Shown piece after piece: positions 736-63,125 of a DNA stretch of 64,000 nucleotides (position 1 is the stretch's first letter; each line of letters begins with the position of its first letter). Under the pieces are notes generated by a model that worked only from the letters and a program-made list of their open reading frames with translations, was not told the origin of the DNA and made no database searches. The stretch is taken from positions 197,780,001 through 197,844,000 of the forward strand of contig OX597815.1 in the NCBI GenBank assembly GCA_951406725.2. The letters are read 5' to 3'. This DNA is from Octopus vulgaris. Taxonomy: Eukaryota. The translations under genes and the position numbers were made by a program.

Positions 736-899
736 CAATCATCTAGGAATCTTAAGCAATTTTATTTTTTTAGTTGTGGTTGGAATGTGTCTCCATCGAG
801 AAGAAGTTATTGGGTGTAAATCTTTGGGCCATGAAATCTCATGATTAAATTGGCATATGCAGGGGTTACCTTCGTTCCCAATGCAGTACATATATATAT

Positions 900-1056
900 A
901 TATACGATGGGCTTCTTCAAATTTCTGTCTGCCAAATCCACTCACAAGGTTTTGTTCGGTCCGAGGTTATAGTAGAAGAGCCTTGCCCAATGTACCACGT
1001 ACAAAGTTTGAACTCGGAACCATGTGGTTGGGAAACAAGCTTCTTATCACACAGTG
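900..1056 (-). mobile_element. tRNA-derived SINE family A, 5' half
   Basis: Reverse complement matches the head of the copy at 40141 (ccacatggttccgagttc..ttgggcaag..cttctactata..gtgagtggatttgg); adjoins (TA)n. Confidence 0.8.
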
Positions 1057-1860
1057 AAACCTAATATTTTTTGTTCGTGTATAATGGCAAAATGAATAAG
1101 CAAGCATTCAATGTACGGATATCGATTTCCTCTCTCTTTTTATATATCTGTCTAAACATATTCTCGAGCCCTTCTCTTTATTTATGTATGCGTGAATAGT
1201 GAGAGTTTCTACCCAATCTCCTGTAGGATGGATATAGCGTTTTGTATTTTCATATATATTTTATACACCTACTCCTTTTAAAAGAAACTTAGTAGCAAAA
1301 TAGAACTGTTTCACAGCAGTCACATTTGTATTTGTCTTCTAGAATATAAGCCCGAACTGAATCTAAATAAATGGAATTTATTTAGAAAGATTTAGCTATT
1401 AAAATATTTAGGAATTACTTCATACCATTGAGAGTCAAAGTTATTGTGTAAAAATATTTTAATTTTCTTCACTTATATCTCTTCCGACATGCCGTTCTAA
1501 GACAAGGGCAACCCCACCATAAATGTTACATATCAAACAAAGAAATGGAGCTCGTAAAGGAAAAAACAACTTAATATATACAAATAAACTGATACTAATA
1601 TTTTGCTACACATACGTATTAACCGCAAACAAAATGAAAATATTACTAGAATTCAGTACAAGAAAACTGAACTTTGCAGACAACATTTTCTAAAACAACA
1701 TCAAACGCAAATCCAACTGTATGTTTTTGCTCGGTCAAACGAATATCTGGTAAACAATACGTAAATCTGATCGGTTAAATTTTTCAATATACAGAAATTC
1801 CATTGGTATTATTCATTTCAATAGAAGATAGCAAGAATCAGTCAATATGTAATCCCCGAA

Positions 1861-2050
1861 AAGCGGTGAGTTGTAGAATCGTTGGCATGCCGGTAAAATG
1901 CTTAGCGGCATTTCGTCCATCTTTAATTCTGTTAAAATTCCGGGTTCGATAAAATAAGTACCAGTTGACCACCACTCGTAGAGATAAAATGGACAAACCC
2001 CCCATCCCTCAAAGTTACTGCCATTGTGCCAAAATTTGAAATTAATATTT
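1861..2050 (+). mobile_element. SINE family B, degenerate, alternative tail (..gccattgtgccaaaatttgaaa)
   Basis: Head aagcggtgagttgtagaatcgttggcatgccgg..aaatgc and core tcgataaaataagtaccagttg are shared with the copies at 28001 and 58341. Confidence 0.7.
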
Positions 2051-3790: not shown

Positions 3791-4189
3791 TACGGCAAAC
3801 TATTCAATGTTTCCATGGAACATTCACTCTATAAATATTAGATGAAGAGCAGATAATAGAAAGTGATTATTTAATGCAACACTCCGATCCCAATCATAAA
3901 TTATTACTAAAAGCACGTATACAGAATACAGATAAAAGTAGTTTTTTTTTTTGTTTAGCCATTTAAGTAATATAGAAATACGCTGAAGAATGAGAAAATG
4001 AATCCTGATGGTCTTCATCCATAAAGGTAATAAGTCTCTACAGAATAGTTTCTAACACGAATACTGGGACTCGTGTCTGGCAGGTAATCTGTTTGCACGG
4101 AACTAAATGGCAGAGGAATATTTCATCAAAAGCTTGTAACGCGGGCGTTAATATGTTTTTAATTTATGCCGACATATATCATATCTTTC

Positions 4190-4199
4190 TGTCTATCTA

Positions 4200-4276
<77 letters not shown>

Positions 4277-4293
4277 TTATTTATCTATCTATA

Positions 4294-4344
<51 letters not shown>

Positions 4345-4363
4345 CTAATTATCTATGCATCTA

Positions 4364-4412
<49 letters not shown>

Positions 4413-4499
4413 ATATATATATCTATCTATCTATCTATTTATCTATCTATTTATTTATCTATCTATTTATTTATCTATCTATCTAGCTATCTATCTATC
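4190..4499. repeat. (ATCT)n/GATA microsatellite, 5' flank of Tx1 LINE
   Basis: Direct reading. Confidence 0.95.
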
Positions 4500-7042
4500 T
4501 TAGCCAGAGATAGAAGTAGAGTAGAGGGTGAGCTAGTTAAGAAGCTAGAAGAGGCAATTAGAAGCGGCATCACATCCGACGTTTTGGCGGCGAGGTTGGC
4601 CCTCGACCAAGACTTCAACGCCAAACACGAAGGATGTGCTGTCAGAGCTAGGATGCGTGCTCTAAGGAACGAAGGTGTTGGAGCCGCGAGAGAGGCCCGG
4701 GTGGCAGAGGCGCAACAGGGCAACAAAGCCACCATTCGGTCCCTGGTAGATGAACAGGGGCGCGAATTGCTCGAGCCAAGTAAAATGTGTGAGGCCTTTC
4801 AGCAGCATTTTGCCCGACTGTTCGGAACGAGTGGAGGGCAATAACGTAGGGTGGACTTCAGTGCCTACCTACATAGCCTACCACGACTCTCGACAAGAAA
4901 GGCAGGGTGCTGCGAAGGTGCCATCACGGCGGCGGAAGTGCAGGAAGCGATGGCAGAATGCTCGAGGGACAAATCACCGGGTTTGAATGGTCTACCCTAC
5001 GAGCTTTACAATTGTATGCCAGACTTGTTTGGAGATCTCTTGGCGGCGGTGTACTGCAACTGGCAGCAAAACGGGAGCATTCCTGGTTTTGTGAGCCGAG
5101 GAGCCGTAACACTGCTGAAGAAAGATCTAAACAAGGGAAATGTAATAGATAACTTTAGGCCCATCACTCTGCTTAATGCAGACTTGAAAATTTTGGCCAA
5201 GGTGCTAGCCAAGAGGTTGGCGCTTGTCATCGAGAAACTGGTCGACAAGGCGCAAACATGCGCCGTGCCAGGCCGGACCATGCATGACAACCTCCACCTG
5301 ATGCGCTACATCATAGACAGGGTAGTTAACGAACCTGGCATGGGTGGGGCGCTGATCAATTTGGATCAATCGAAAGTTTTCGATAGGGTGGACCATCGAT
5401 ACTTGGAGGCGGTCCTCGGAGCGGCTGGCTTCGGTCCCGTCTTCCGCGGCTGGATAGCCGCTTTGTACAGAGGCATCCGTTCGGTAATTCGCGTGAATGG
5501 ACATCTATCGTGACCCTTCGACATCGCACGTTCGGTCCATCAGGGATGCCCCCTCTCGTCGCTTCTATACGTATTGACTCTCGAGCCATTATTGCGGAAG
5601 CTGGCAACCTTGAGAGGCATCCCGCGAGAACTGGGATGCGGGACGAGCGTGTCTGCATACGCGGACGACGTCACCGTCATAGTGTCTAGCCACGAGCACA
5701 TCGAGCAGGTCGGCGAGACAATGAAAAACTACGAAGCGGTGACAGGAGCGAAAATCAACCGGGAAAAGTCAGTGGGCTTGCGACTAGGCACCTGGAGAAG
5801 CAAGCCCATGCCGTCCACCAGCGCCTCCGTCGTGGGACGCTGGACCGACGGCCCGGTTGAGTTGCTCGGGGTCTGGTTTGGTCCGGACCTCCAAGTGGAG
5901 AAGAACTGGAACGAGATAACGAGTAGGGTGGTCACTCTCGCCCGGCAATGGGCCGAGAGGAAACTGTCCCTAAAAGGTCGGGCGGAGGTGGTGAACACGT
6001 ACATCGCGTCCGTCATCTACTACCGCCTGACCGTCGTACCTTGTCCCGACCCTACCATCACCAAACTACAACGCATTCTCTTTCGCTTCTTGTGGAAAGG
6101 ATGCGTTCCGATGGTCAGGCGATCCATTTGCTGTCAACACCCGTTAAAAGGAGGGCTGGGCATGCCGTGGTTGATGATGAGCAGACACGCGCTGAGACTG
6201 CGACATCTCTGGCTCTATGTAGACGACGGTGAACAGGTGTGGTCGCCGTTTGTGAGGCACGCTTTCCCGCAGCTCGTTTCCATGACCGAACTGCAGTCGT
6301 GGATCAAAAAGAGGCCGAGGAAGGGCGAATGGCACCGCGAGTGTCGCGTTGCTCTCAAGCAACTCTGCCGTCCTGGGTCGACCTTGAGTAACTTCAACAC
6401 AACCAAAGCATTCTATAGGGGTTTAGTGGAGGGGAGGTACGACGACGAGCTCGGGGCGAACCTGGACGTCGACGAGGAGTACCTGACCCGCCTGTTCAGG
6501 ACGACTTTCGGGCCAGAGCCCATGGACAACTTCCAGAGATCCCTGGCCTGGCAGTGCTACCGAGAAGCGCTACCCGTTCGGGATAAGCTCTACAGACACG
6601 GCTCGAGAAACACGGGGCCGACCTGCCCGAGATGCGGTCAGAGCGACGAAACCGTTCTGCACGCACTCGTGCAGTGTCCAACAATTTCCGACCTGTGGGC
6701 TTATGTCGAACAACTGCTGTCACGTGTGGGACGAGTCGGTTTATCAGCTGAGTCTATCGTCAATATTGTCACGCCTCCTTCCTTCAAACGGGAAGGAAGA
6801 GCTATTTTCATCATCCTTGTGTCTATGGCGAAAGAATGTATCTGGTGGACGCGTCTGAAAGGATTGGAGACAAACACTTTCCTCTCTGGTCAATCTCTCA
6901 TCAACTTCTTCAAGTACCACTTGAAAAGGAAAGTGAGAGTAGAGAGGCAAGTTTTGTCTAGCGAATGTTTTAAAAAAGATGGGTGAATGTAGCAAGAATT
7001 GCACGTATGAATGACGAAGCCACCTTGAGCATGATCCTATGA
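4500..7042 (+). pseudogene. Tx1-like ORF2 (reverse transcriptase plus CCHC zinc knuckle), disrupted
   Basis: One frame across ORFs 4584/4851/5574 with stops at 4842-4844 and 5511-5513. Motifs KSPGLNGLPYE, NFRPITLLNADLKILAKVLA, QTCAVPGR, LDQSKVFDRVDH, QGCPLS, AYADD, KGGLGMP, CPRCGQSDETVLHALVQC. Restoring one A in the A-run at ~6972-6977 gives FKKRWVNVARIARMNDEATLSMIL* ending at 7042. Confidence 0.92.
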
Positions 7043-7420
7043 ACCCAGAAATTGAAAACAGAGAGTTGCTTATTCGCAAAAAAAAAAAAAAAAAAAAAGA
7101 AATATAACATGTGACTCCATTGACCGAGGTTATCGTGGTCTTTTCCGTAGGCTTTTCTTTCCACGGGTAAACCTCACCTGTCCTCCCCTTTACACTTCAT
7201 ATTGACATTTCTGTGATAACGATCCCTATTGATCAATTTTTTTTTCATCTCCCTTTTTTTTTACCCCCTTTTTTTGTCCTCTTTCTCTCCTTTTACGATC
7301 CCTTTTGATCGAAACTCCCCCTTCCTTTTTTTTTTTTTTTTTTTAAACCTTCAAAAGAAAAGCTCTACCTTGTAATTTGTTCTATCTGTGTGCAGCCCTG
7401 TGTGGCTAATAATGAAACAT
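4500..7420 (+). mobile_element. Tx1-clade (L1 group) non-LTR retrotransposon, 5'-truncated (endonuclease missing), with ~380-bp 3'UTR
   Basis: GC-rich block bounded by ATCT arrays; ORF2 motifs (see pseudogene entry); pyrimidine-rich 3'UTR ending aataatgaaacat; the same 3'UTR recurs at 61837-62181. Confidence 0.93.
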
Positions 7421-7490
7421 ATCTATCTATCTAATTATCTATGCATCTAATTATCTATCTATCTATCTATCTATCTGTCTGTCTGTCAGT
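7421..7490. repeat. (ATCT)n 3' flank containing a duplicated target marker
   Basis: ctaattatctatgcatctaattatct occurs at both 4345-4370 and 7431-7456. Confidence 0.9.
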
Positions 7491-8705: not shown

Positions 8706-8828
8706 CTAAGTCTTTGTTCGGCTTGAAGCTGTTGTAGAAGACACTTGCCCAAAGTTCCACGGGGCGTGACTAGACGCGGTAACATGTAGTTGGGTAGTAA
8801 ATTTCTTACCACCCAACCATGCCTGCAT
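8706..8828 (-). mobile_element. SINE family A 5' fragment, degenerate
   Basis: gtagaagacacttgcccaa...catgtagttggg...cttaccac..ccatgcctgc matches the family A head (reverse complement). Confidence 0.7.
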
Positions 8829-9699
8829 CAAAATAATTGTTATTGTAATATTCATTACAGTGTATATGAGCAATAGAATTTTATTTATTGTTTTTCTACC
8901 TAAATACTGCAACTATTGAACCATGAGTCTAGAAATTAGTTATTAATAGATTTTCTCTTGAAAAGTTAGAAATTTTGTCAGTCCCTTAGGATATATGATT
9001 TTAGTAACCGAACAAATTTCTTAGCTTATTTCAAAATATTTGACAATTGCATTTGTTACATACTATACATATTAGTTGTTTATTACATCTACTATTTCGA
9101 ATTAATTTATATTCGTATATGCAGAGAACATATACGTATATTAAACCTAACAATTAATAGTTTCTTCATTTACATTTGTTAGTTATTGTTAGTTATTATA
9201 CAGCACCTGCTCGGTAATGTGAATTTAGATTCGTTCTCAGAAAACTGTATGTGACTATGATTTTATGTTAACAACAGACTATGTGGTGTTTGACTTGTTT
9301 TTTTCTTTTTGCTTTAGTTTAAATGATTAATTCCAACGTAAGCTTTAAAACATTGCAATGAATAAGAAGAATAACAGTGTAACAACATTTGCTTATATTA
9401 ATGACCAGCTGTGGAATTATTGAAATTAAAATATATTAGTAAGATTGCAATTAATCACTATATTTTATGACAAATTTTCCTTGTTACAGAATTTCAATAA
9501 CCATTAAGTAGCAGAATTAAATGTTTTGGCTTTTTAAATAGAAGCTCAGAATAGAAATATCTTACCTGTGATAGCTGTTTAGGTCGTGTTAAATTATAGT
9601 AAAACTTTAAAAAAAACACGCAATGAATTTTTACAAGACGAGAGATATGGTATAAAAAGATTGGACTAACTATTCTAGTGAGTCCATTTTTCTTAGAAT

Positions 9700-11571: not shown

Positions 11572-11857
11572 TATTTGAGGGAATAAAATCCAAACTTACA
11601 AGGAAAAGAATTCAATTTAGAAATACTAAATCAAATTCCACAACGATATAATATTTATAAAATATTAGAAAAAAACACCTTTTATCAATTCAAAATTAAT
11701 AATTAAATTAATCTAGAAAATTAAATATAATAGAAAAGTTAAAATTAAAATAACAATTAAAAAGTAAAGATTAAGTAAATTTCAAGAATAATATAATGTA
11801 TATAATAGGTGATATAATTCATTTTGAATTGATAAAAGGTGTTTGTTTTTTCTAATA

Positions 11858-11861
<4 letters not shown>
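11570..11861. mobile_element. AT-rich PLE-type terminal fragment with terminal inversion, between (TA)n runs
   Basis: 11662-11697 is inverted at 11821-11858; start gggaataaaatccaaacttacaa is shared with ~29420. Confidence 0.55.
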
Positions 11862-11902
<41 letters not shown>

Positions 11903-12234: not shown

Positions 12235-13450
12235 TATAAAAAGATAAGAGTAATATATCAAGGGGGTACGGTTAAAGCACTCAATTATAATTAAACTTGC
12301 GGCTAACCGCACATTTGGCAAGGAATATCTAGGATTATTTGACGTAAGAAATCCCAATATATTTCAGCCGATGGGTAAATCCTGGGTCTGATTTATTGGA
12401 TTATAAACCATTTACCGAGTGTATAACCAAGACGATTACAACGAATACGGAGAATATTATATCTGCACTCTATTTTTCTGTCTATCATACAGCATATTTA
12501 ATTCAAAATCTGTTATAAGTATGCTCCTGCTGCATAGACATGCATTTCGCAATTGCATTCGCACCAAGTTTCATTAATTTGGTTAAGAGTCTATGCATCT
12601 CTTTTCAAGGTTTAGTCAGTTGAAGCTAAGGAGTGTTGATTTACCTAGCATTATATTTCGTAGGGGTCAATAACATTTGAGTTTAAATAATGGGAGATGA
12701 ACATTTGGAAATCTGATACGAATATATATACGCTAATGAGTTTGACCCTATAAGGAATTTCAAATCATGAATACTAGATCCTAAAATAGGTTAGAGTATA
12801 TCTCAACTAATGCCCTACGACACCCTAGTACTAGACAGATTCCACTGAGGAGATGCATAGACATATCTGCAAAAAATTATGTCCCCCAAATTCTAGATTT
12901 TCCCACTCTACCAAAGTGAATTAAAATTAATTAGTTTCAGAGATATATGTGTACAATTACGAGCCACTAAATTAGATATAACTTAGAGAATGAGATATGT
13001 ATAACTTACTTGTAAGGCAAATCCGAATCTTTGTTCATATAAATCAAATTTAAATCAACATGTAGATTTCGCTATCTTAGTTTAATTTATATTTGAAGTT
13101 TTACATATGACGAATGTAAATTACTACAAGGATATAGGTAAACTAGATATTACATTGACATTTATCATGGATCTCTTACATAAGCGGTACTTAATTAAAA
13201 ATCTTAATTAAAAATCTTTTCTATGGAAATATAGAGATGCCTTTCCGTAAAGGTGTGCACACATTCAGGCTAGCTCCTGTTTAGTACTTAGTTACAGGTA
13301 TTTAGACATGAAAATATGAATATTTCTTCTTGGAGTAAATTGCTTATTTTTACCCCCGACTTCGTAAGGCTCTGCCCCGCTGATTTTTCCCATTATATTT
13401 TAAAACCTGATCGCATTTATAGCCGATCAGGTTTTTAAATGTTCCTCTCC
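12232..13450 (-). mobile_element. Highly degraded Penelope-like RT remnant
   Basis: Frameshifted minus-strand similarity to YRYVDD (taccgcttatgtaagagat, ~13172-13190) and LYDKRxDF (ttatatgaacaaagattcggattt, ~13019-13042). Confidence 0.4.
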
Positions 13451-13635
13451 CATTCTTTACCAAAATCTCTACCCTACAAAATACAATTCTAGCGAAACCA
13501 ACAACCCCTTAGTTCGCTTCAACCTACGAAAGTGACTAAAACTTTTAATAAAGATGCCTTGACTCTCAACCAAATGAATGAAGCTGGATGTAATTGCAAT
13601 ATGTCTGTGCCGCAGAATTATACACATATACATAT

Positions 13636-13792
13636 ATACGACAGGCTTCTTTCAGTTTACGTCTACCAAATCCACTCACAACGCTTTGGTGGGCCTGAGG
13701 CTATAGTAGAAGACATTTGCTCAAGGTGTCACGCAGTCGGACTGAACCCGGAACCATGTGATTGGTAAGCAGGCTACTTACCACACAGCCTC
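13636..13792 (-). mobile_element. SINE family A, 5' half
   Basis: acgacaggcttctttcagtt..ccaaatccactcaca..ggaaccatgtg..ctacttaccacacagcc is the reverse complement of the family A head. Confidence 0.85.
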
Positions 13793-14589
13793 TCTGAACA
13801 ATTTTTCAAGAAGTACATAAATGGCGATGTGGCCAATTTGATGTTGAGTGCCTGAAGTTCTAATCCGTTGAATTCGAAAAGAGCTTATCATAACCGCAAA
13901 TACACAATTGTCAGAAATATTTGAAATTATGCATTTCATACTGAAATATCTACTCAAACAATACTTGATATTTAGAAATATAATTAATAAATCATATTAG
14001 CGTTATCAAAATTGCCAGTCATACGAGGGAAATCATTTTAACTTAAGATATTTAAAGGTGAAATTACATGGTGATTCTTCGATATTTCTATGAGATCGCA
14101 TGCTACGCCTGAGATGTTTTAATTTTCTCGTATTATATATCTGTGTTATATATCTTAGATTTATTGCGTAAAACATTAGAGACTATCTCTTTAAAATACT
14201 TTTATTTAATAGAGAAAAGATGGTCATAGAATTATCTACAATATAACAGTCAATCGATTATATACTTTTAGAAAAATATCTTGATAATATAATTGTTTTG
14301 AAAACATTAAGTTAAAAAAATGAATTTTCAATTATTTTTACATTGTGTCTGTTAGATTCGTGAAAACAGTTCAATTCACTGATGCGGTGTATACGGGCTA
14401 ACTTTTACAGAGCTGAGTCAGAGTTAAAAGTCCACTATAATCTCGGACTAACCAAATTGGTACGGGGAAAACGTAGCAGCAGCGTGTCGCCTCACTCTTC
14501 CTCTCCATCTCTCTGTCTGTCTCTCTTTCAATCAGTCTATCAATATATCTATCAACATTTTAACGCATAAATACTCACATGCATGTATA

Positions 14590-14815
14590 TGTGTGTATGT
14601 GTGTGTGTCTGTGTGTGTGCTTATGTCAGTGTTTTTCATTCATCACCGCTTGACAACCAGAGATGGTTTGTTTACGTCCCAGTTATCCAGCGGCTCCGCA
14701 AGAGAGGCCAATAGAATAACTACCTAGCTTAACAATAAATCCAGCGGTCGATTCGTTCGATTAAGAATCCATCAAACACGACAGTGGTCTAATGAATGAA
14801 CCAAGTAAAAGATAA
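14590..14815 (+). mobile_element. SINE family A, 3' half, degenerate
   Basis: cgcttgacaacc..tttacgtccc..gcgg..aatagaataa..tgaaccaagtaaaaga matches 40345-40505. Confidence 0.7.
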
Positions 14816-19600: not shown

Positions 19601-20524
19601 TCTAAAATGAATTGTGTGTTTAAGTAATATGATTTATTGCATAAATGTGAATCCATGCAATCGAACCATGTTATCACTTCATCGCTGTGTGATACATACC
19701 ACTATTATATGCTTCTCATTACACCATGATACGGCAAGAATCTCCTCTACGAATTTAATCATCCAACTAGCTATATCAGTCAAATCTCACAGTAACTATT
19801 TCCAGACGAATTGAAAAAGGGAATATATTGGGTGTTGTTGTCAGTGTGCTGGTTCTTTATAAAACAAATGCTTGTGAATATCGTCTTTCAGTGAACTCCA
19901 CTATAGAACTGTTCTTTTAAATCCCTCTCGTATTCTAAAAAGAATAAGGCAGTGGAACGTGATACTACACTGTCACACGAATTTCTAGATATATGATTGA
20001 AATATTGCTCATTAAAATATTAATGCTTTAAAAGACATCAGTAAAAAGAAGCTTTTGATAAATTAGACTTTTACAAAACAATGTAGTGGAAATGAAAGCT
20101 AAAACGTTCCCTTCATCGTTCGTGATGGATATGCAGCAGTATTACGAATGTGGTACATTAAACTGCTTGTGAAAAATTATCTTTCAAATCACACGTGAAA
20201 TATATCAGAGGGTAACATTGATTAGAGATTTGATGTCGGCGACATTCATGGATACTCATGGATTGTGATACAATTGTCAAATCTGGAGATCATGTTTTTA
20301 TAAACAAATCAGTGATAAAAATTAAAACACAGTGCAAACAGTTAACAAACAATTCTCATACAAAATTCAAGCGTTAGAAATATAGACAATACTGCACAGA
20401 AATGTATATATAATATATACATACATGCAAACATCTCTCTCTCTCTCAATATATATATGTATATACATATAAATACAAATATAATTTTATTTCTATTTCT
20501 CATATGTATATACATCTATCGGGA

Positions 20525-22599: not shown

Positions 22600-22985
<386 letters not shown>

Positions 22986-24782: not shown

Positions 24783-26155
24783 TAAGATTCAGTTTAATTA
24801 AATACTTAAATTAGGCCTCCTTATAAGTTAAATATAGCCCGCACAGCTCCAAGTTAGGTGAGCCTGCTCGGCTCCAAATTAGGTGAAAAGAATGTAAATA
24901 AGTAGCAGATGTCAATACATTACGGCTGTTTCAAAGGGCTCCATTCAATTGATCAATGAACACAGTACATCAATTTGAATGAAACCGCTCTCTTCAATGC
25001 AGATGACCTTATAGATTTCAAATACAAATGATAAATCATATTTTAACAAATTTCCATCAATAATAGGAACTAAAATAATTACATTGTTTCCTTATGTTAT
25101 ATCTGTGGCAGAATGTGTTTAGAAAATAATACATACCTTATTAAGCCTTCTATAATTTAGAGAGTAGCAGAGGAAACGTAGTGGGTGTCAAGATAAAGGT
25201 GTGGTGACGTAGCTATTTATATTTAGAAGATTTCATATAGCGTGTAGTCTTCAACCATTTACAATTAAATCCGTTGGGAGTTGTCAACCGTATTCTAGTT
25301 GATAATGATAAATCAATTAATATCGAACAATCTCCCAGATCCTCATTGTACTGGAACCATATATCTTGCTTTATCTACATAAGAAATGGTATGCCGCAGA
25401 ATGGCTAGTAAGAGAATGACTGAAGGGGAAGTGGTGGTAGCGTGAAGAAGGAAGGATAGGTGTGGCCAATAATTATTTAGATTATCAAATAAAGTGGAAT
25501 ATAATGAAAAACAAGAGAAATAAGTAATATAAGCTTTAAGAGTGGAAATTGGAATTGAGGGATACAGGAGGTAGTAATTCATATATTAGCAACGTATTGT
25601 ATTATATTAAGAAAATTTAAATCAAGGGGCGACATCTAGGAGCATTGCGGAACGACTAAATGACCATCAGAGACAATATGACGACAAAGAACAGTCCTCC
25701 CTACTCTATCAACATGCTAAAAAGAAGATAGAAATAAAGATATTAAAGCATTTCTACGAACACTATTAAGGTGGTCATAGTAAAACCGTTCTACAATAAA
25801 TATATAACTGAAATAAATTATCATCTGAGAAGGAGTACGCAGTATATATTAAAGCAATAACATGGATTATTTTCTTCATTACAGGAGGATCAGTATAAGA
25901 TATTGACAATATAGAATCGAATAGAAGGGGTAATTGAATTAGAGGCATACTAAATGTATAAGGGATTACATGCGGAAGCAATAGCTAAACCGATTTGGGT
26001 ATGTAAACATTTAGTGAGTATGGCATACTTAAAAAAGATAAGGATATCCATATCCAGTAACAGAAATCTATATGGTTATCTGCACTGAAGAGAGCGGTTT
26101 CTTGCAAAATGACGTAATATTTTCATTGATCAATGAAATAGAGTCGTTTGAAACA
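24780..26155 (+). mobile_element. Penelope-like element remnant: GIY-YIG fragment between inverted hammerhead-bearing repeats
   Basis: SNVLYYIK then QGATSRSIAERLNDHQRQY..SSLLYQHA (25588-25725); 24927-25019 is an inverted copy of 26063-26155, both with (C/U)UGAAGA-long stem-GAAAC. Confidence 0.7.
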
Positions 26156-27930: not shown

Positions 27931-27978
<48 letters not shown>

Positions 27979-28346
27979 ATATTACTACTACTACTACTAC
28001 CTATTTCTTTACTACCCACAAGGCGCTAAACACAGAACGGACAAACAAGGACAGACACAGAGATTAAGTCGATTACATCGACCCCAGTGCGTGACTGGTA
28101 CTTAATTTATCGACCCCGAAAGGATGAAAGGCAAAGTCGGCCTCGGTGGAATTTGAACTCAGAACGTAACGACAGACGAAATACCACGAAGCATTTCGCC
28201 CGGCGTGCTATTGATTCTGCCAGCGCGCCGCCTTAATACTACTACTACTATCACCACTTTTACTACCACTGCTGCTGCGGCAACTAATACTACTACTACT
28301 ACTAATGCTACTACTACCACCACTACTACTACCACTGCTGCAGCTG

Positions 28347-28404
<58 letters not shown>

Positions 28405-28514
28405 AACTACTACTACAACTAATACTACTATTACTACTACTACTACTACTACTAATACTACTACTACCACCACTACTACTACCACAGCTACTGCTGCTAC
28501 TGCTGCCGCTACTA

Positions 28515-28578
<64 letters not shown>

Positions 28579-28594
28579 TACTACTACTACTACC

Positions 28595-28674
<80 letters not shown>

Positions 28675-29779: not shown

Positions 29780-30364
29780 ACTAATGTAGGATAAAAAATT
29801 TTTTTTTCGAGAAAAAATTTTTATCAATGGCCAGCATATCAAAAAATACCTTTACAGGTTAAATTTATAAATAATTTACAAAATAAGGGCAAAGGAAAAA
29901 TTCTAATGCCACATATGCCGAAAAAAAGACAAAATTGTTAATAACCATTATAATTTATGCGTCTCCAAACAAACCGATACAAATTTCTAAAAAGTCCGTT
30001 ATTACCGTATTGGTCCCAATTTCGGAGTTAATTCATAAGAATTTTCCCCTCTTCAGCGATAAATACGTGAGATATAAGTGAAATACTTACTCATACCCAT
30101 GGAAAAATCAAGCACTAAGTCCTGAGCAAACCTAAGTACCCCAAATATATCTAAAATAGAAAATCTTCGGCACATCTAGAGACACCTGTGATTCGAACCA
30201 GAAACTTTCACAGAGTGAGAGAATCCGGAAGTGAACACTATTAAATTTTTAACTAATGTAGGATGATTTTTTTTCCCGAGACGCATAAATTATAATGGTT
30301 ATTGACAACTTTGCCTTTTTTTCGGCATATTTGGCATTAAAATTTTTCTTTTGCCCTTATTTTG

Positions 30365-30369
<5 letters not shown>
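29776..30369 (-). mobile_element. Non-coding PLE-LTR/retrozyme-like unit inside (TA)n
   Basis: Direct repeat aactaatgtaggat at 29779 and 30251 (472-bp period); ~92-bp inverted repeat 29874-29965 / 30278-30369; internal hammerhead motif. Confidence 0.75.
29997..30067 (-). ncRNA. Type-I hammerhead ribozyme motif
   Basis: CGUAUUUAUCG-CUGAAGA-GGGG-AA-AAUUC-UUAU-GAAUU-AA-CUCC-GAAA-UUGGGACCAA-UA-CGGUAAUAACG; intact core, G10.1-C11.1 pair, AUA triplet. Confidence 0.8.
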
Positions 30370-30406
<37 letters not shown>

Positions 30407-33979: not shown

Positions 33980-34330
33980 AGTTATACCAGAGATCCTAAT
34001 CACAGCGACTGCCAAGGGAACCATTAGGTAGCGACCATCTCTCAATTTTTTCCATGACACAGGAGTAAGCATAAAATAGACTAACCTCTCAACCTCTCAG
34101 CAAATTTCCTAATGTGCAACACCGGCCACTCATCACCCAACCATTTTTTTAAATGGAATGTAAAATGTTTATGGATGCTTGGCGAAAGAAGAAAATGTTT
34201 GTTGTCTGTCCACTTCCCTCACATCCATCACACATCCTGTTTCTGCAAAGGTACGAAGCAGGAAAAAACCGCCTGCTGGAAACAGCAGGCGGTGGTGCAA
34301 TATTTGCTATGGAGAGGTCCGATAGACATA
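33980..34330 (+). mobile_element. Possible degraded LINE fragment (end of AP endonuclease and linker)
   Basis: ccattaggtagcgaccatctc = PLGSDHL (SDH motif); downstream EKTACWKQ; weak support. Confidence 0.35.
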
Positions 34331-40140: not shown

Positions 40141-40502
40141 CAGGCGCAGGAGTGGCTGTGTGGTAAGTAGCTTGCTAACCAGCCACATGGTTCCGGGTTC
40201 AGTCCCACTGCGTGGCATCTTGGGCAAGTGTCTTCTGCTATAGCCCCGGGCCGACCGGAAACTGAAAGAAGCCTGTCGTATATATGTATATATATGTATA
40301 TATGTGTATGTGTGTGTTTGTGTGTGTGTGTTTGTCCCCCTAGCATTGCTTGACAACCGATGCTGGTGTTTTTACGTCCCCGTCACTTAGCGGTTCGGCA
40401 AAAGAGACCGATAGAATAAGTACTGGGCTTACAAAGAATAAGTCCCGACTAAAGGTGGTGTTCCAGCATGGCCGCAGTCAAATGACTGAAACCGGTAAAA
40501 GA

Positions 40503-42629: not shown

Positions 42630-42730
42630 TGTTGCTGTGTCGTAACAAGCTTCCTAACTAACCATATGGTTCCAGGTTCAGTCCCACTCATCGTCACTTT
42701 GGGCAAGTGTCTTCTACTATAGTCTCGATA
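42630..42730 (+). mobile_element. SINE family A 5' fragment
   Basis: gctgtgtcgtaacaagctt..ccatatggttccaggttcagtcccact..ttgggcaagtgtcttctactatag. Confidence 0.8.

Positions 42731-44979: not shown

Positions 44980-45060
<81 letters not shown>
44855..45060. repeat. (GAT)n/(AAT)n microsatellite
   Basis: Direct reading. Confidence 0.95.
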
Positions 45061-45061
<1 letters not shown>

Positions 45062-45266
45062 TTTGGAACAAAAGCCAGCCATTTTTCGGAAAGGGATTAG
45101 TCGATTAGATCGACCCAAGTGTTCAAATCATACTAAATTTATCGACACTGCTAGTATGTCAAAGAAAGTCGACCCTTGCGGCATTTGAACCCAGAACGTA
45201 AAAATAGACGAAATCAACTGAAAATTTTACTCGGCATGCTAAAGATTCTGCTGCCACACCACCTTA
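45061..45266 (-). mobile_element. SINE family B, degenerate, alternative tail running into (ATT)n
   Basis: aaagtcgacc..gcggcatttgaacccagaacgta..gacgaaat..cggcatgcta..gattctgc matches the family B head and core; tail differs from the 28001 copy. Confidence 0.75.
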
Positions 45267-58174: not shown

Positions 58175-58310
58175 TGTGTGTGTAAGAAGTTAAATTTGCA
58201 CCCACATGCTTCCGGGTTCAATCGCACTGCGCAGCAACGTCAGCAATTGTCTTCTACTCTAGTCTTGGGCCGACGAAATGCTTTTGAGTCGATACAGTAG
58301 ACAACAACTA
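58175..58310 (+). mobile_element. SINE family A 5' fragment, degenerate
   Basis: gtaagaagt..ccacatgcttccgggttcaatcgcactgcg..gtcttctactctagtcttgggccgac. Confidence 0.65.
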
Positions 58311-58340
58311 TCGTGGGAATATATATATATATATATATAT

Positions 58341-58570
58341 ATTTCTTTACTACCCACAAAGGGCTAAACACAGAGGGGACAAACAAGGACAGACAAACGG
58401 ATTATCTCGATTACATCGATCCCAGTGCGTAACTGGTACTTAATTTATCGACCCCGAAAGGATGAAAGGCAAAGTCGACCTCGGCGGAATTTGAACTCAG
58501 AACGTAGCGGCAGACGAAATACGGCTACGCATTTCGCCCGGCGTGCTAACGTTTCTGCCAGCTCGCCGCC

Positions 58571-58571
<1 letters not shown>
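58341..58571 (-). mobile_element. SINE family B, full length, Tx1-like tail, inside (TA)n
   Basis: Closely similar to 28001-28234; TA repeats on both sides. Confidence 0.9.
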
Positions 58572-58620
<49 letters not shown>

Positions 58621-58877
58621 TGTGTGTTTATATGTGTGTACACACATATGCATCTATCATTTTACTTACTTGACTAGTAAATAACATTGGGAGAGATCGT
58701 TTAATAGGAAATGAAATGCCAAAAAAACTTAAGAGAAAAGAATGTTTATAGTAGAGTACCAGAAACACAGAAATAAGAGGGCAAGGATATAAGTGTGTGT
58801 GCTCGGTAATGTCATTTTACAGATAGTAATGTGCTTGAATAATACATACATGCATACATACATACATACATACACAC

Positions 58878-61720: not shown

Positions 61721-61794
<74 letters not shown>

Positions 61795-61836
61795 TTATCT
61801 ATCTATCTATCTATCGATCGCTCTATCTATCTATCT
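61720..61836. repeat. (ATCT)n microsatellite, 5' flank of second Tx1 copy
   Basis: Direct reading. Confidence 0.95.
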
Positions 61837-62181
61837 CAAATAAGTAATACAGAGAGTTGCTTATTTGCAAAAAAAAAAAGAAATATAACATGTGACTTCA
61901 TTGACCGAGGTTACCGTGGTCTTTTCCGTAGGCTTTTCTTTCCACGGGTAAACCTCACCTGTCCTCCCCTTTACACTTCATATTGACATTTCTGTGATAA
62001 CGATCCCTATTATTCATTCCCCCCCTTTTTTAACCCCTCCCTTTTTTTGTCCTTTTTCTTTCCTTTTACGATCCCTTTTGATCAAAAACCACCACTCTCT
62101 TTTTTTTACCCCCAAAAGAAAAGCTCTACCTTGTAATTTGTTCTATCTGTGTGCAGCCCTGTGTTGCTAATAAAGAAACAT
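61837..62181 (+). mobile_element. Second copy of the Tx1-like LINE, 3'UTR only
   Basis: Colinear with 7046-7420 (acagagagttgcttatt..ttgaccgagg..ccacgggtaaacctcacctg..aataaagaaacat), followed by atctatctatc. Confidence 0.93.
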
Positions 62182-62997
62182 ATCTATCTATCAATCTATC
62201 TGTAGAAACTGCACTGTCTATGAACGTATCCTGTTGTTTAGAAACCATTCTTAACTCCTACAAGTGAGACACTGCTTTCGTTACAGGGTAACGTTGCGTA
62301 GTGTTTGCAATTATTAGTACGAATGATGTGTTTAATCATATATATGTAATATGAAGCAAGTGTCTCGAACGACACAGTTACCCCTGTTTATCTTTTAATT
62401 CTTATCCTTACATTACCGTCTTGTCATATGCACCTTAAATATATTCTTAAGATTAATTTCTTACAATTGATTATAGACAATATAGATAAAACAGGAAAAA
62501 ATATTTATTAACGTACTTATGGCCGTCATAATGACATTCTGAAATGCGCTGTTATCTATGCATTTCAAATATGAGCATACGCGCATGAAGCACATTATAG
62601 TCATGTTTTATGTGCTAACGAGATTCACGTAACATCCTAATAGCTTGGAGAAAGATTATACCTAGCATACAGAATTAGAATTATGTTACCTGAGACGGAA
62701 TATGCTGCAATGCAAATGCTTTACAAACATGTTTCTATGTATCCATGTTAGGTTTTAGACTACACAAATAACATAACAGTGCATGCACAACATTTGTTCC
62801 CGGACAATTAACGATTGCATAACAATCAGCTTTATAAATGCCTATTGGGGAATATATACACGTCTTAGAGTTTGTTTATCATTCTGTTTTTATGTATGTG
62901 TTCGCATACCAATGACTTGTTTATAGCGATGAAATGTTCATGCTGCACAAACTAAGACAAAAAGACACGCAAACACATAGAATATAACTATACGTAT

Positions 62998-63125
62998 ATC
63001 CGACAGGCTTCTTTTAGTTTCCGTCAACCAAAGCCACTCACAATACTTTGCTCAACCCGAGACGATAGTAAACTGAACACTGAACCATGCGGTTGGGGAA
63101 CAAACTTCTTACTACACGCCTGCGT
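62998..63125 (-). mobile_element. SINE family A 5' fragment with internal deletion
   Basis: cgacaggcttcttttagtttccgtc..ccactcacaa..gaaccatgcggttgggg..cttcttactacac. Confidence 0.7.

What the first reader, a model, noticed from the sequence alone, without database searches (positions are those of the whole stretch)
58341..58400. SINE family B carries the 3' tail of the Tx1 LINE: candidate Tx1-mobilised, microsatellite-homing SINE
Seen: SINE tail (minus strand) ccttgt---ttgtcccctctgtgtttagccctttgtgggtagtaaagaaa versus the consensus end of the two LINE copies ccttgtaatttgttctatctgtgtgcagccctgtgtggctaataaagaaa (7368-7417, 62129-62178). By hand this gives about 39 of 47 aligned nt identical, ending at the same point, with a small terminal stem-loop in both. 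Both full SINE copies sit inside microsatellites on both sides ((TA)n here, (ACT)n at 28001). Known: stringent-type SINEs borrow the 3' end of their partner LINE, usually L2, CR1 or RTE; Tx1 partners are rarely reported. Inference: an abundant SINE uses a Tx1-family RT/EN and inherits a microsatellite-insertion habit. The partner may be a sister Tx1 family, since these SINE copies are not in GATA.
Basis: partly seen in the sequence, partly recalled or inferred. Interest (0 to 1): 0.8.

Follow-up and report, generated by a model that had tools for sequence, protein, structure and literature searches.

The report
Octopus SINE with a Tx1-derived tail
A short, very common jumping element in an octopus-like genome ends in the same 47 letters as a longer self-copying element of a group not previously found to lend its tail end, which suggests that it borrows that element's copying enzyme.

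Summary
Observation confirmed. Two 230-bp tRNA-headed SINEs (58342-58571, 28004-28233, minus) match the last 50 nt of both LINE copies (7368-7417, 62129-62178) at 38/47 and 36/47 and end at the same base; 0 of 5000 tail shuffles score as well. The LINE is an octopod L1-group element that falls with U2-splitting, Keno-like elements and apart from vertebrate and plant L1 (96/98), so Tx1 is supported by proxy. Both LINE copies sit in GATA arrays. The tails differ by 19% while the two LINE tails differ by 4%, so the partner is probably a sister family. New here: the same SINE head and body also carries a second tail (swap point 58407) that resembles the 3' ends of related LINEs from another animal (10/3000). 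Those ends carry a hairpin with compensatory changes, as stringent recognition predicts. Microsatellite homing is only locally supported (2 of 2 copies, background 3-12%); the genome-wide flank data are heterogeneous and filtered. No Tx1-tailed SINE appeared in the papers searched. Mobilisation itself was not tested.

The parts
58342..58571 (-). SINE-B, full-length copy: tRNA-like head, central body, LINE-like tail
   Evidence: A-box-like motif at element position 12, B-box-like motif at 76, no T4 run
58342..58388 (-). SINE-B tail shared with the LINE 3' end
   Evidence: 38/47 identical, 0/5000 shuffles
58400..58412 (-). Tail-swap point (about 58407): relatives leave the B sequence here and go on into a second tail (C)
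   Evidence: loose ends in 3210 (X5) and 2224 (X6) contigs
28004..28233 (-). SINE-B, second full-length copy, inside an (ACT)n array (27931-28000, 28237-28674)
   Evidence: tail 36/47
4501..7419 (+). 5'-truncated Tx1-type LINE: ORF2 remnant 4503-6986 (RT and zf-RVT, two in-frame stops, endonuclease part missing) plus 3' UTR
7368..7417 (+). LINE 3' end shared with SINE-B
61846..62180 (+). Second, 3'-UTR-only copy of the same LINE; shared end 62129-62178
   Evidence: 160/163 and 64/67 identical to the 7k copy outside the homopolymer tracts
4177..4500 (.). (TATC)n array upstream of the 7k LINE; 4334-4389 is identical to the 56 nt downstream of the LINE (7420-7475), including an irregular 35-nt word found only at these two places
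61721..61836 (.). (ATCT)n array upstream of the 62k LINE copy; short TATC run downstream
58180..58341 (+). Older SINE of another family (A) whose internal (TA)n is the target of the 58k SINE-B; the rest of the repeat follows at 58572-58639
   Evidence: alignment with three other A copies puts the (TA)n at the same place
1860..2046 (+). Old relative with the same head and body but the other tail (C)
22742..22855 (+). Old 5'-truncated relative with tail C, followed by (TAT)n
45060..45264 (-). Old relative with tail C, followed by (ATT)n

Best explanation
SINE-B is a Pol III-type, tRNA-headed SINE of an octopus genome whose last 47 nt were taken from the 3' end of a Tx1-group LINE, and it is copied in trans by the ORF2 protein of that LINE lineage, probably a sister family of the GATA-inserting family seen in the window. 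Steps. (1) Shown: shared 3' end, ending at the same base. (2) Shown by proxy: the LINE belongs with Tx1-type elements. (3) Shown in relatives: this lineage keeps a structured 3' end under selection, a hairpin just before AATAAA. (4) Inferred: the SINE RNA is made from its internal A/B boxes and reads through to the tail. (5) Inferred from the L2/CR1/RTE precedent: ORF2p binds the tail, nicks DNA and reverse-transcribes in place. (6) Weakly supported: a loose bias for AT-rich simple repeats, not homing to one motif. The same head and body has swapped tails at least once, and the second tail also looks like a 3' end of this LINE lineage.
For: Tail match and controls; its length and identity lie within the 35-61 bp and 72-95% accepted for bivalve SINE-LINE pairs (PMC11481361, passage). 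At 3 of the 9 sites where the 58k tail differs from the 62k LINE, SINE variants carry the LINE base: 58376 in 27% and 25% of depth, 58367 in 6% and 8%, and 58350 in the X5 junction consensus. ORF2 has RVT_1 and zf-RVT; its relative P0001 hits human L1 ORF2p at 1e-50 against R2 at 1e-24. The careful tree of 30 rows puts it in an octopod clade (100/100), sister to array-forming LINEs (100/100), inside a 24-row clade (96/98) with elements that split or abut U2 snRNA genes and apart from vertebrate and plant L1. In 9 array-LINE 3' ends, two stem positions show three pair types each, paired in 9/9 and 8/9. Tail C matches those ends: mean score 27.9 against 18.4 +/- 2.9, 10 of 3000 shuffles; best hits score 30 or more in 25 of 49 array loci and at most 29 in the 98 other loci. 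Both LINE copies lie in GATA arrays, which cover 1% of the window.
Against: No partner copy with a closer tail was found: the shared pattern gave 0 hits in the viral and metagenome collections, and no genome is held. The window's own hairpins are weak. The B tail and the last 50 nt of the window LINE do not match the array-LINE ends (1318, 327 and 1068 of 3000), so the hairpin argument for them rests on position, not sequence. The tail-C match is post hoc and uses a 30-nt C-rich consensus. It was significant against one of four whole units (3, 272, 854, 380 of 2000), and the three window C copies gave 59, 132 and 675 of 3000. A covariance model of those ends found nothing significant in the window (best E 0.14). 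The tree holds no named Tx1 reference. In one search, depth running on into (TA)n past the 5' end is under 1% of the depth at 58554-58564 (0.29 M against 41 M in X5).
Confidence: 0.68

Rival explanations
1. The partner is the very GATA-inserting family in the window. The SINE's insertion sites are looser because pairing between the RNA's last bases and the nicked DNA helps to choose the site (the LINE runs into TATC repeats, the SINE into TA or TAG repeats).
For: Both are young: LINE copies 98% alike outside homopolymers, SINE copies 90%. All three targets contain TA steps. SINEU families share their Tx1 partner's target at only 13-90% (PMC4494074). 3' repeats are proposed to steer site choice in RTE pairs (PMC6007223, passages).
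Against: The tails differ at 9 of 47 sites while the two LINE tails differ at 2 of 50. Neither SINE copy is in GATA. Several octopod sister families exist (68-72% amino-acid identity), and 13 recently active L1-Tx1 families are listed for O. vulgaris (PMC13282606).
Confidence: 0.12
2. The tail is a relic of an old Tx1 partner, and present copies are moved by another LINE (RTE, CR1 or Dong/R4) that reads only the last few bases.
For: 19% tail divergence; RTE-BovB and Dong-R4 are abundant in octopus; Dong targets TAA repeats (PMC3812793, passage); the hairpin is weak.
Against: The tail is kept to the same terminal base in young copies, and the listed variants in it stay at 27% or below in X5 and X6 (43 rows not shown). 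The family swapped to a second tail that also resembles this LINE lineage.
Confidence: 0.09
3. The direction is reversed: the LINE family picked up its last 50 nt from the SINE by template switch or 3' transduction, and the true partner is unknown.
For: The SINE is far more abundant, so it is an easy donor. The window LINE's last 50 nt do not resemble those of its relatives.
Against: The LINE end has the layout of its relatives (hairpin, then AATAAA), and in the 62k copy the stretch just upstream of the shared block aligns weakly with their ends (65/3000; the 7k copy does not, 1559/3000).
Confidence: 0.08
4. Chance likeness of two T/G-rich stretches that both end in an A-rich run.
For: The match is short, and the whole-element shuffles reach the weaker 28k score in 2/500 and 1/2000.
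Against: 0/5000 in all four tail tests, 0/500 and 0/2000 for the 58k copy, co-terminal ends, and top rank in the whole window.
Confidence: 0.02

Closest known systems
Stringent SINE-LINE pairs (UnaSINE/UnaL2; bivalve CORE, V, Meta and Deu SINEs with CR1, CR1-Zenon, L2, Nimb; PMC3747384 Table 1, PMC11481361)
   Same: tRNA-type head, central body, and a short 3' tail shared with a LINE; tails swapped under one body; similar match length and identity.
   Different: The partner is Tx1-type. The table of pairs in PMC3747384 lists no Tx1 partner, and the bivalve survey found four other clades.
SINEU of crocodilians with Tx1-Mar (PMC4494074)
   Same: A SINE proposed to be moved by a Tx1-clade LINE, with a partly inherited target bias.
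   Different: SINEU has U1/U2 heads and poly(A) tails, and no LINE sharing its 3' end was found; the link rests on shared targets. Here the link is 3'-end homology and the head is tRNA-like.
Plant and algal L1-tailed SINEs (ZmSINE2/3 with LINE1-1_ZM; SINEX-3_CR with L1-1_CR; PMC3472496)
   Same: L1-group partner with a conserved 3' hairpin, taken as stringent recognition.
   Different: These three were the only L1-tailed SINEs among 58 pairs; none is animal or Tx1.
Kibi, Koshi and crocodilian microsatellite-targeting Tx1 families (PMC4494074, PMC3812793)
   Same: Tx1-type LINE inserted in a simple repeat in a fixed orientation.
   Different: Their targets are (TC)n, (TTC)n, (TTCC)n and (TTTC)n; GATA is not named in the passages read. 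No Kibi or Koshi sequence was in my trees.
Octopus SINEs: OR1/OR2 (CORE), OK, and the RepeatMasker classes tRNA-Core and tRNA-Deu (PMC8967140)
   Same: Abundant tRNA-derived octopus SINEs. Family A of the window looks CORE-like and B/C may be the tRNA-Deu class (both labels from recall).
   Different: No sequence comparison was possible. The 1994 paper was not seen (OK is recalled). The SINE itself may already be catalogued without a partner.

Membership tests
tRNA-derived SINE | Internal Pol III A and B boxes in the 5' part, no internal T4 terminator | tested here: met
   A-like motif at position 12, B-like motif at 76, no T4 run, in both copies; box patterns are from recall
tRNA-derived SINE | Head homologous to a named tRNA | tested here: inconclusive
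   Rfam gave no tRNA match at E up to 10; ARAGORN called no tRNA in either copy
tRNA-derived SINE | Short, non-coding, dispersed in many copies | tested here: met
   230 bp; 2 B copies and 3 relatives in 64 kb; over 280,000 contigs laid in each of two runs
Stringent SINE-LINE pair | Shared 3'-terminal sequence ending at the same point | tested here: met
Stringent SINE-LINE pair | Conserved 3' stem-loop with compensatory changes | tested here: inconclusive
   weak in the window's four ends; clear in 9 ends of related LINEs
Stringent SINE-LINE pair | Tail needed for trans-mobilisation by the LINE's ORF2 | not testable with these tools
   needs a cell assay
Stringent SINE-LINE pair | Overlapping periods of activity | tested here: inconclusive
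   only two copies each: 98% (LINE, outside homopolymers) and 90% (SINE) alike
Tx1 clade (the LINE) | ORF2 with APE endonuclease, RT and C-terminal zinc motif of the L1 group | tested here: met
   RT and zf-RVT in the window copy; the endonuclease is cut off by 5' truncation but present in full-length relatives; L1 far closer than R2
Tx1 clade (the LINE) | RT groups with Tx1/Keno-type elements, not with L1 proper | tested here: met
   96/98 clade with U2-splitting elements; these are proxies, no named Tx1 reference; the larger quick tree left the deep nodes open
Tx1 clade (the LINE) | Target-sequence preference | tested here: met
   2 of 2 copies in (TATC)n, same orientation; such arrays cover 1% of the window; n = 2
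Microsatellite-specific retroelement (the SINE) | More than 20% of copies flanked by one target type (criterion of PMC4494074) | tested here: inconclusive
   2 of 2 in simple repeats but of different motifs; pooled 5' flanks heterogeneous, 3' flanks skipped by the tool
MetaSINE or DeuSINE superfamily | Central Meta or Deu/Nin domain | not testable with these tools
   domain sequences are only in figures; motif searches of supplements and full texts found nothing relevant

The most novel reading that the evidence does not exclude
One of the dominant SINE superfamilies of octopus runs on Tx1-group LINEs through two different borrowed tails. This animal Tx1 lineage recognises its RNA stringently through a 3' hairpin, and the SINE takes a bias for simple repeats with it. 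That would be the first animal L1-group stringent pair, supporting the proposal that stringent recognition is ancestral in the L1 group, and it would tie the octopus SINE expansion to its microsatellite-rich genome.
Probability: 0.3. Interest if true: 0.75.

Novelty: new variant of a known kind. Interest (0 to 1): 0.57.

Why it matters
L1-group LINEs are the stated exception to SINE-LINE tail sharing: 3 tailed SINEs for over 800 LINEs, all in plants or algae (PMC3472496). The one proposed Tx1-driven SINE group has no shared tail (PMC4494074). An abundant animal SINE with a Tx1 tail makes it testable whether Tx1 elements recognise RNA stringently and whether a SINE inherits a site-specific endonuclease's targets. 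It also names a candidate engine for part of the octopus SINE expansion (SINEs 11.6% of O. vulgaris, PMC13282606). It is a matter for mobile-element specialists and does not show a new kind of mechanism.

Tried and rejected
No whole genome is held, so no genome-wide consensus or flank count could be made. Rfam found nothing meaningful in the SINE (11 chance-level rows). Pattern scans for the shared tail: viral 0, metagenome 0; one search used a pattern one position too long and is no test. The window pattern count (4 matches) was built from those four sequences and shows only that there is no fifth. A single-protein scan of viral contigs found nothing. The two raw-read runs laid only 15 and 206 of 12.9 million reads each, far too few for this genome's repeat load; the cause is unknown, so I did not use them for copy number or flanks. 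The covariance model of relatives' 3' ends gave 25 window rows at E 0.14-8.8, none significant; the 62k LINE end ranked 6th and the 1863 C tail 8th. A blastn of seven window tails against 147 loci gave only short or simple-repeat matches. My first label 'Meta-domain' (in the notes) came from recall; I could not test it and now think Deu/Nin is as likely, also from recall. The Atlas look-up gave only unnamed RT clusters. Four look-ups of earlier findings returned nothing. The 85-row careful tree did not finish; the 30-row tree used 30 of those 85 rows, chosen by me to cover each clade, under LG+G4.

Full report
Setting. The window is animal DNA, rich in simple repeats (99 tandem-repeat rows). 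Protein relatives of its LINE include an Octopus bimaculoides entry (83% over a short piece) and, for the relative P0001, an Argonauta protein (71%), so the genome is most likely an octopus; the species was not determined. No whole genome is held.

The observation. Two SINE copies, 58342-58571 and 28004-28233 on the minus strand, are 90% identical. Each has A- and B-box-like motifs and no T4 run, although neither Rfam nor ARAGORN names a tRNA. Their last 47 nt align with the last 50 nt of both LINE copies, 38/47 for the 58k copy and 36/47 for the 28k copy, with one 3-nt gap and the same end point. No tail shuffle reached the observed score (0 of 5000 in all four pairs). Whole-SINE shuffles against the whole LINE copies reached it in 0/500, 0/2000, 2/500 and 1/2000. 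In a scan of the whole window the two LINE ends rank first after the SINEs (49 against 29 for the best unrelated site). Likeness stops upstream of the block. The stem-loop is predicted but weak: of 8 folds, 7 have z between +0.4 and -1.1 and one has -2.7.

The LINE. 4501-7419 is 5'-truncated inside ORF2, with RT and zf-RVT domains and two in-frame stops; 61846-62180 is a 3'-UTR fragment, 160/163 and 64/67 identical outside homopolymer tracts. Full-length relatives of about 1150 aa carry endonuclease, RT and zinc motif. P0001 (71-72% identical) hits human L1 ORF2p at 1e-50 and R2 at 1e-24 or weaker (10 hits). With no named Tx1 reference at hand I used proxies: loci in which the element splits or abuts a U2 gene (L006 has U2 1-27 upstream and 35-161 downstream; also L146, L144, L014), the habit that defines Keno (PMC4494074). 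In a careful tree of 30 rows the window LINE forms an octopod clade of 4 (100/100), joins 6 other-animal relatives (100/100), and lies in a 24-row clade with the proxies (96/98), apart from rows from a frog L1-like set and plant L1. The 85-row quick tree agrees on the first two nodes and leaves the deep ones open. Both copies sit in (TATC)n in the same orientation, and such arrays cover 1% of the window. The 56 nt after the 7k copy are identical to 4334-4389 before it, including an irregular word found nowhere else, so both flanks belong to one array. This may be a long target duplication or an older duplication within the array.

The family genome-wide. Laying four runs on 58290-58590 at 80% likeness gave 534,296 and 282,825 contigs for X5 and X6; X23 and X24 gave 15 and 206 reads and were set aside for counts. 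Depth is no copy number, but the family is plainly very abundant. Three things emerge. First, the 58k tail is near the pooled consensus, and at 3 of its 9 mismatches to the 62k LINE a variant carries the LINE base (58376: 27% and 25%; 58367: 6% and 8%; 58350: X5 junction consensus); 43 variant rows were not shown. Second, at 58407 many contigs (3210, 2224) leave the B sequence for a different tail, C, which three old window copies also carry. Third, the tail is often joined to a headless second unit at about 58522 (1685, 840 contigs).

Relatives' 3' ends. An alignment-based scan returned 49 loci from one record labelled as a bacterial genome, holding head-to-tail arrays of a LINE 42% identical to P0001; I infer these are animal DNA. 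Their 3' ends are conserved across subfamilies while the sequence after AATAAA diverges. They hold an invariant hairpin and a terminal hairpin in which two positions show three pair types each, paired in 9/9 and 8/9 of the 9 ends used (four core positions were fixed by my search motif). That is what stringent recognition predicts, although the ends come from one record and are related. Tail C resembles these ends: 22 of 25 aligned nt in the best case, best hits of 30 or more in 25 of 49 array loci against at most 29 in 98 other loci, and 10 of 3000 shuffles against the 9 ends. Against that, only one of four whole-unit tests was significant (3, 272, 854, 380 of 2000), the old window C copies gave 59, 132 and 675 of 3000, a covariance model found nothing significant in the window, and the test is post hoc. 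The B tail and the window LINE's last 50 nt do not match these ends in sequence; they share only the layout of a hairpin followed by AATAAA or its variant.

Microsatellite homing. Both B copies have simple repeats on both sides, against a background of 3-5% of sites by strict definitions and 12% by cover. The 58k repeat is the internal (TA)n of an older family-A SINE, at its usual place, so it predates the insertion. But n is 2, the motifs differ from each other and from GATA, the pooled 5' flanks (B and C together) are AT-rich with agreement 0.42 and 0.40, and depth into (TA)n is under 1% of that at 58554-58564. The tool skipped the 3' flank as a repeat and drops human-like records without notice, so this does not refute a bias. 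I read it as a loose bias at most.

Mechanism. Shown: shared co-terminal tail; Tx1-type LINE by proxy; tail swapping; a selected 3' hairpin in relatives. Inferred: Pol III transcription, binding of the tail by a Tx1 ORF2 protein and target-primed reverse transcription. A sister family is the likelier partner because the tails differ by 19% while the LINE tails differ by 4%, several octopod families exist, and O. vulgaris has 13 recently active L1-Tx1 families.

Literature. Searches. None listed a paper reporting a SINE with a Tx1-derived tail or a partner for this octopus SINE; I saw listings and abstract openings only, except as follows. PMC4494074: parts 1-4 of 5. PMC4824008: parts 1-3 of 6 and a supplement search, one file not searched. 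PMC3747384: passages and the table of pairs. PMC11481361: passages and a supplement search. PMC4758252: passages and a supplement search, one file not searched. Passages only: PMC13282606, PMC5786205, PMC3812793, PMC8967140, PMC3472496, PMC6007223. Not seen: the 1994 octopus SINE paper, Repbase Reports, Dfam, SINEBase, subscription journals and figure alignments; any of these could already hold the SINE or the pairing.

Verdict. A real tail homology and a probable new SINE-LINE partnership, with a Tx1-type partner: a new variant of a known kind. Homing is unproven. Interest 0.57.

Noticed in passing
window 4334-4389 and 7420-7475: 56 identical nt of irregular GATA array on both sides of the LINE, the upstream one ending 111 bp before the insertion: possibly an unusually long target duplication (up to about 167 bp) later eroded by slippage.
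   Followed up: partly
L084-L131, L142 (contigs CAXXMW01): A record labelled as a bacterial genome holds head-to-tail arrays of Tx1-type LINEs with two ORFs (6.4-6.8 kb units, several subfamilies, no RNA gene found between units in the five loci scanned); most likely animal DNA in the bin.
   Followed up: partly
L006, L133, L134, L139, L144, L146: Tx1-type elements that split or abut U2 or U1 snRNA genes, some in 5S-U2-U1 clusters; U1 insertion was not among the targets named in the passages read.
   Followed up: no
window 58522 and 58404 (loose ends): SINE-B tails joined directly to a headless second unit in many contigs, and in run X24 short tandem repeats of the tail alone.
   Followed up: partly
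window 887-1054, 8712-8830, 13621-13794, 40146-40445, 42631-42726, 58180-58318, 62957-63125, 14579-14742: SINE family A, at least 8 pieces, with an internal (TA)n(TG)n repeat that can serve as a landing site for other elements.
   Followed up: partly
window 34093-34275 (-): Degraded fragment like the C-terminus of a different, older Tx1 ORF2 (38%, E 1.5e-4). Upstream on the same strand, 34900-34504 is a pyrimidine-rich stretch running into (ATCT)n, perhaps another LINE 3' end in GATA.
   Followed up: partly
P0085 (O. bimaculoides RhoGEF10-like model): An annotated host protein model carries a short piece 83% identical to this LINE's ORF2: a gene-model artefact or exonised LINE.
   Followed up: no
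window 12519-12732 / 13412-13623; 24927-25019 / 26063-26155; 29860-29965 / 30278-30384; 11646-11875: Inverted repeat pairs and a long palindrome, possibly ends of DNA transposons or MITEs.
   Followed up: no
window 19646-19734 (-): Weak tRNA-Thr call at a lowered ARAGORN threshold; may be a SINE head or chance.
   Followed up: no
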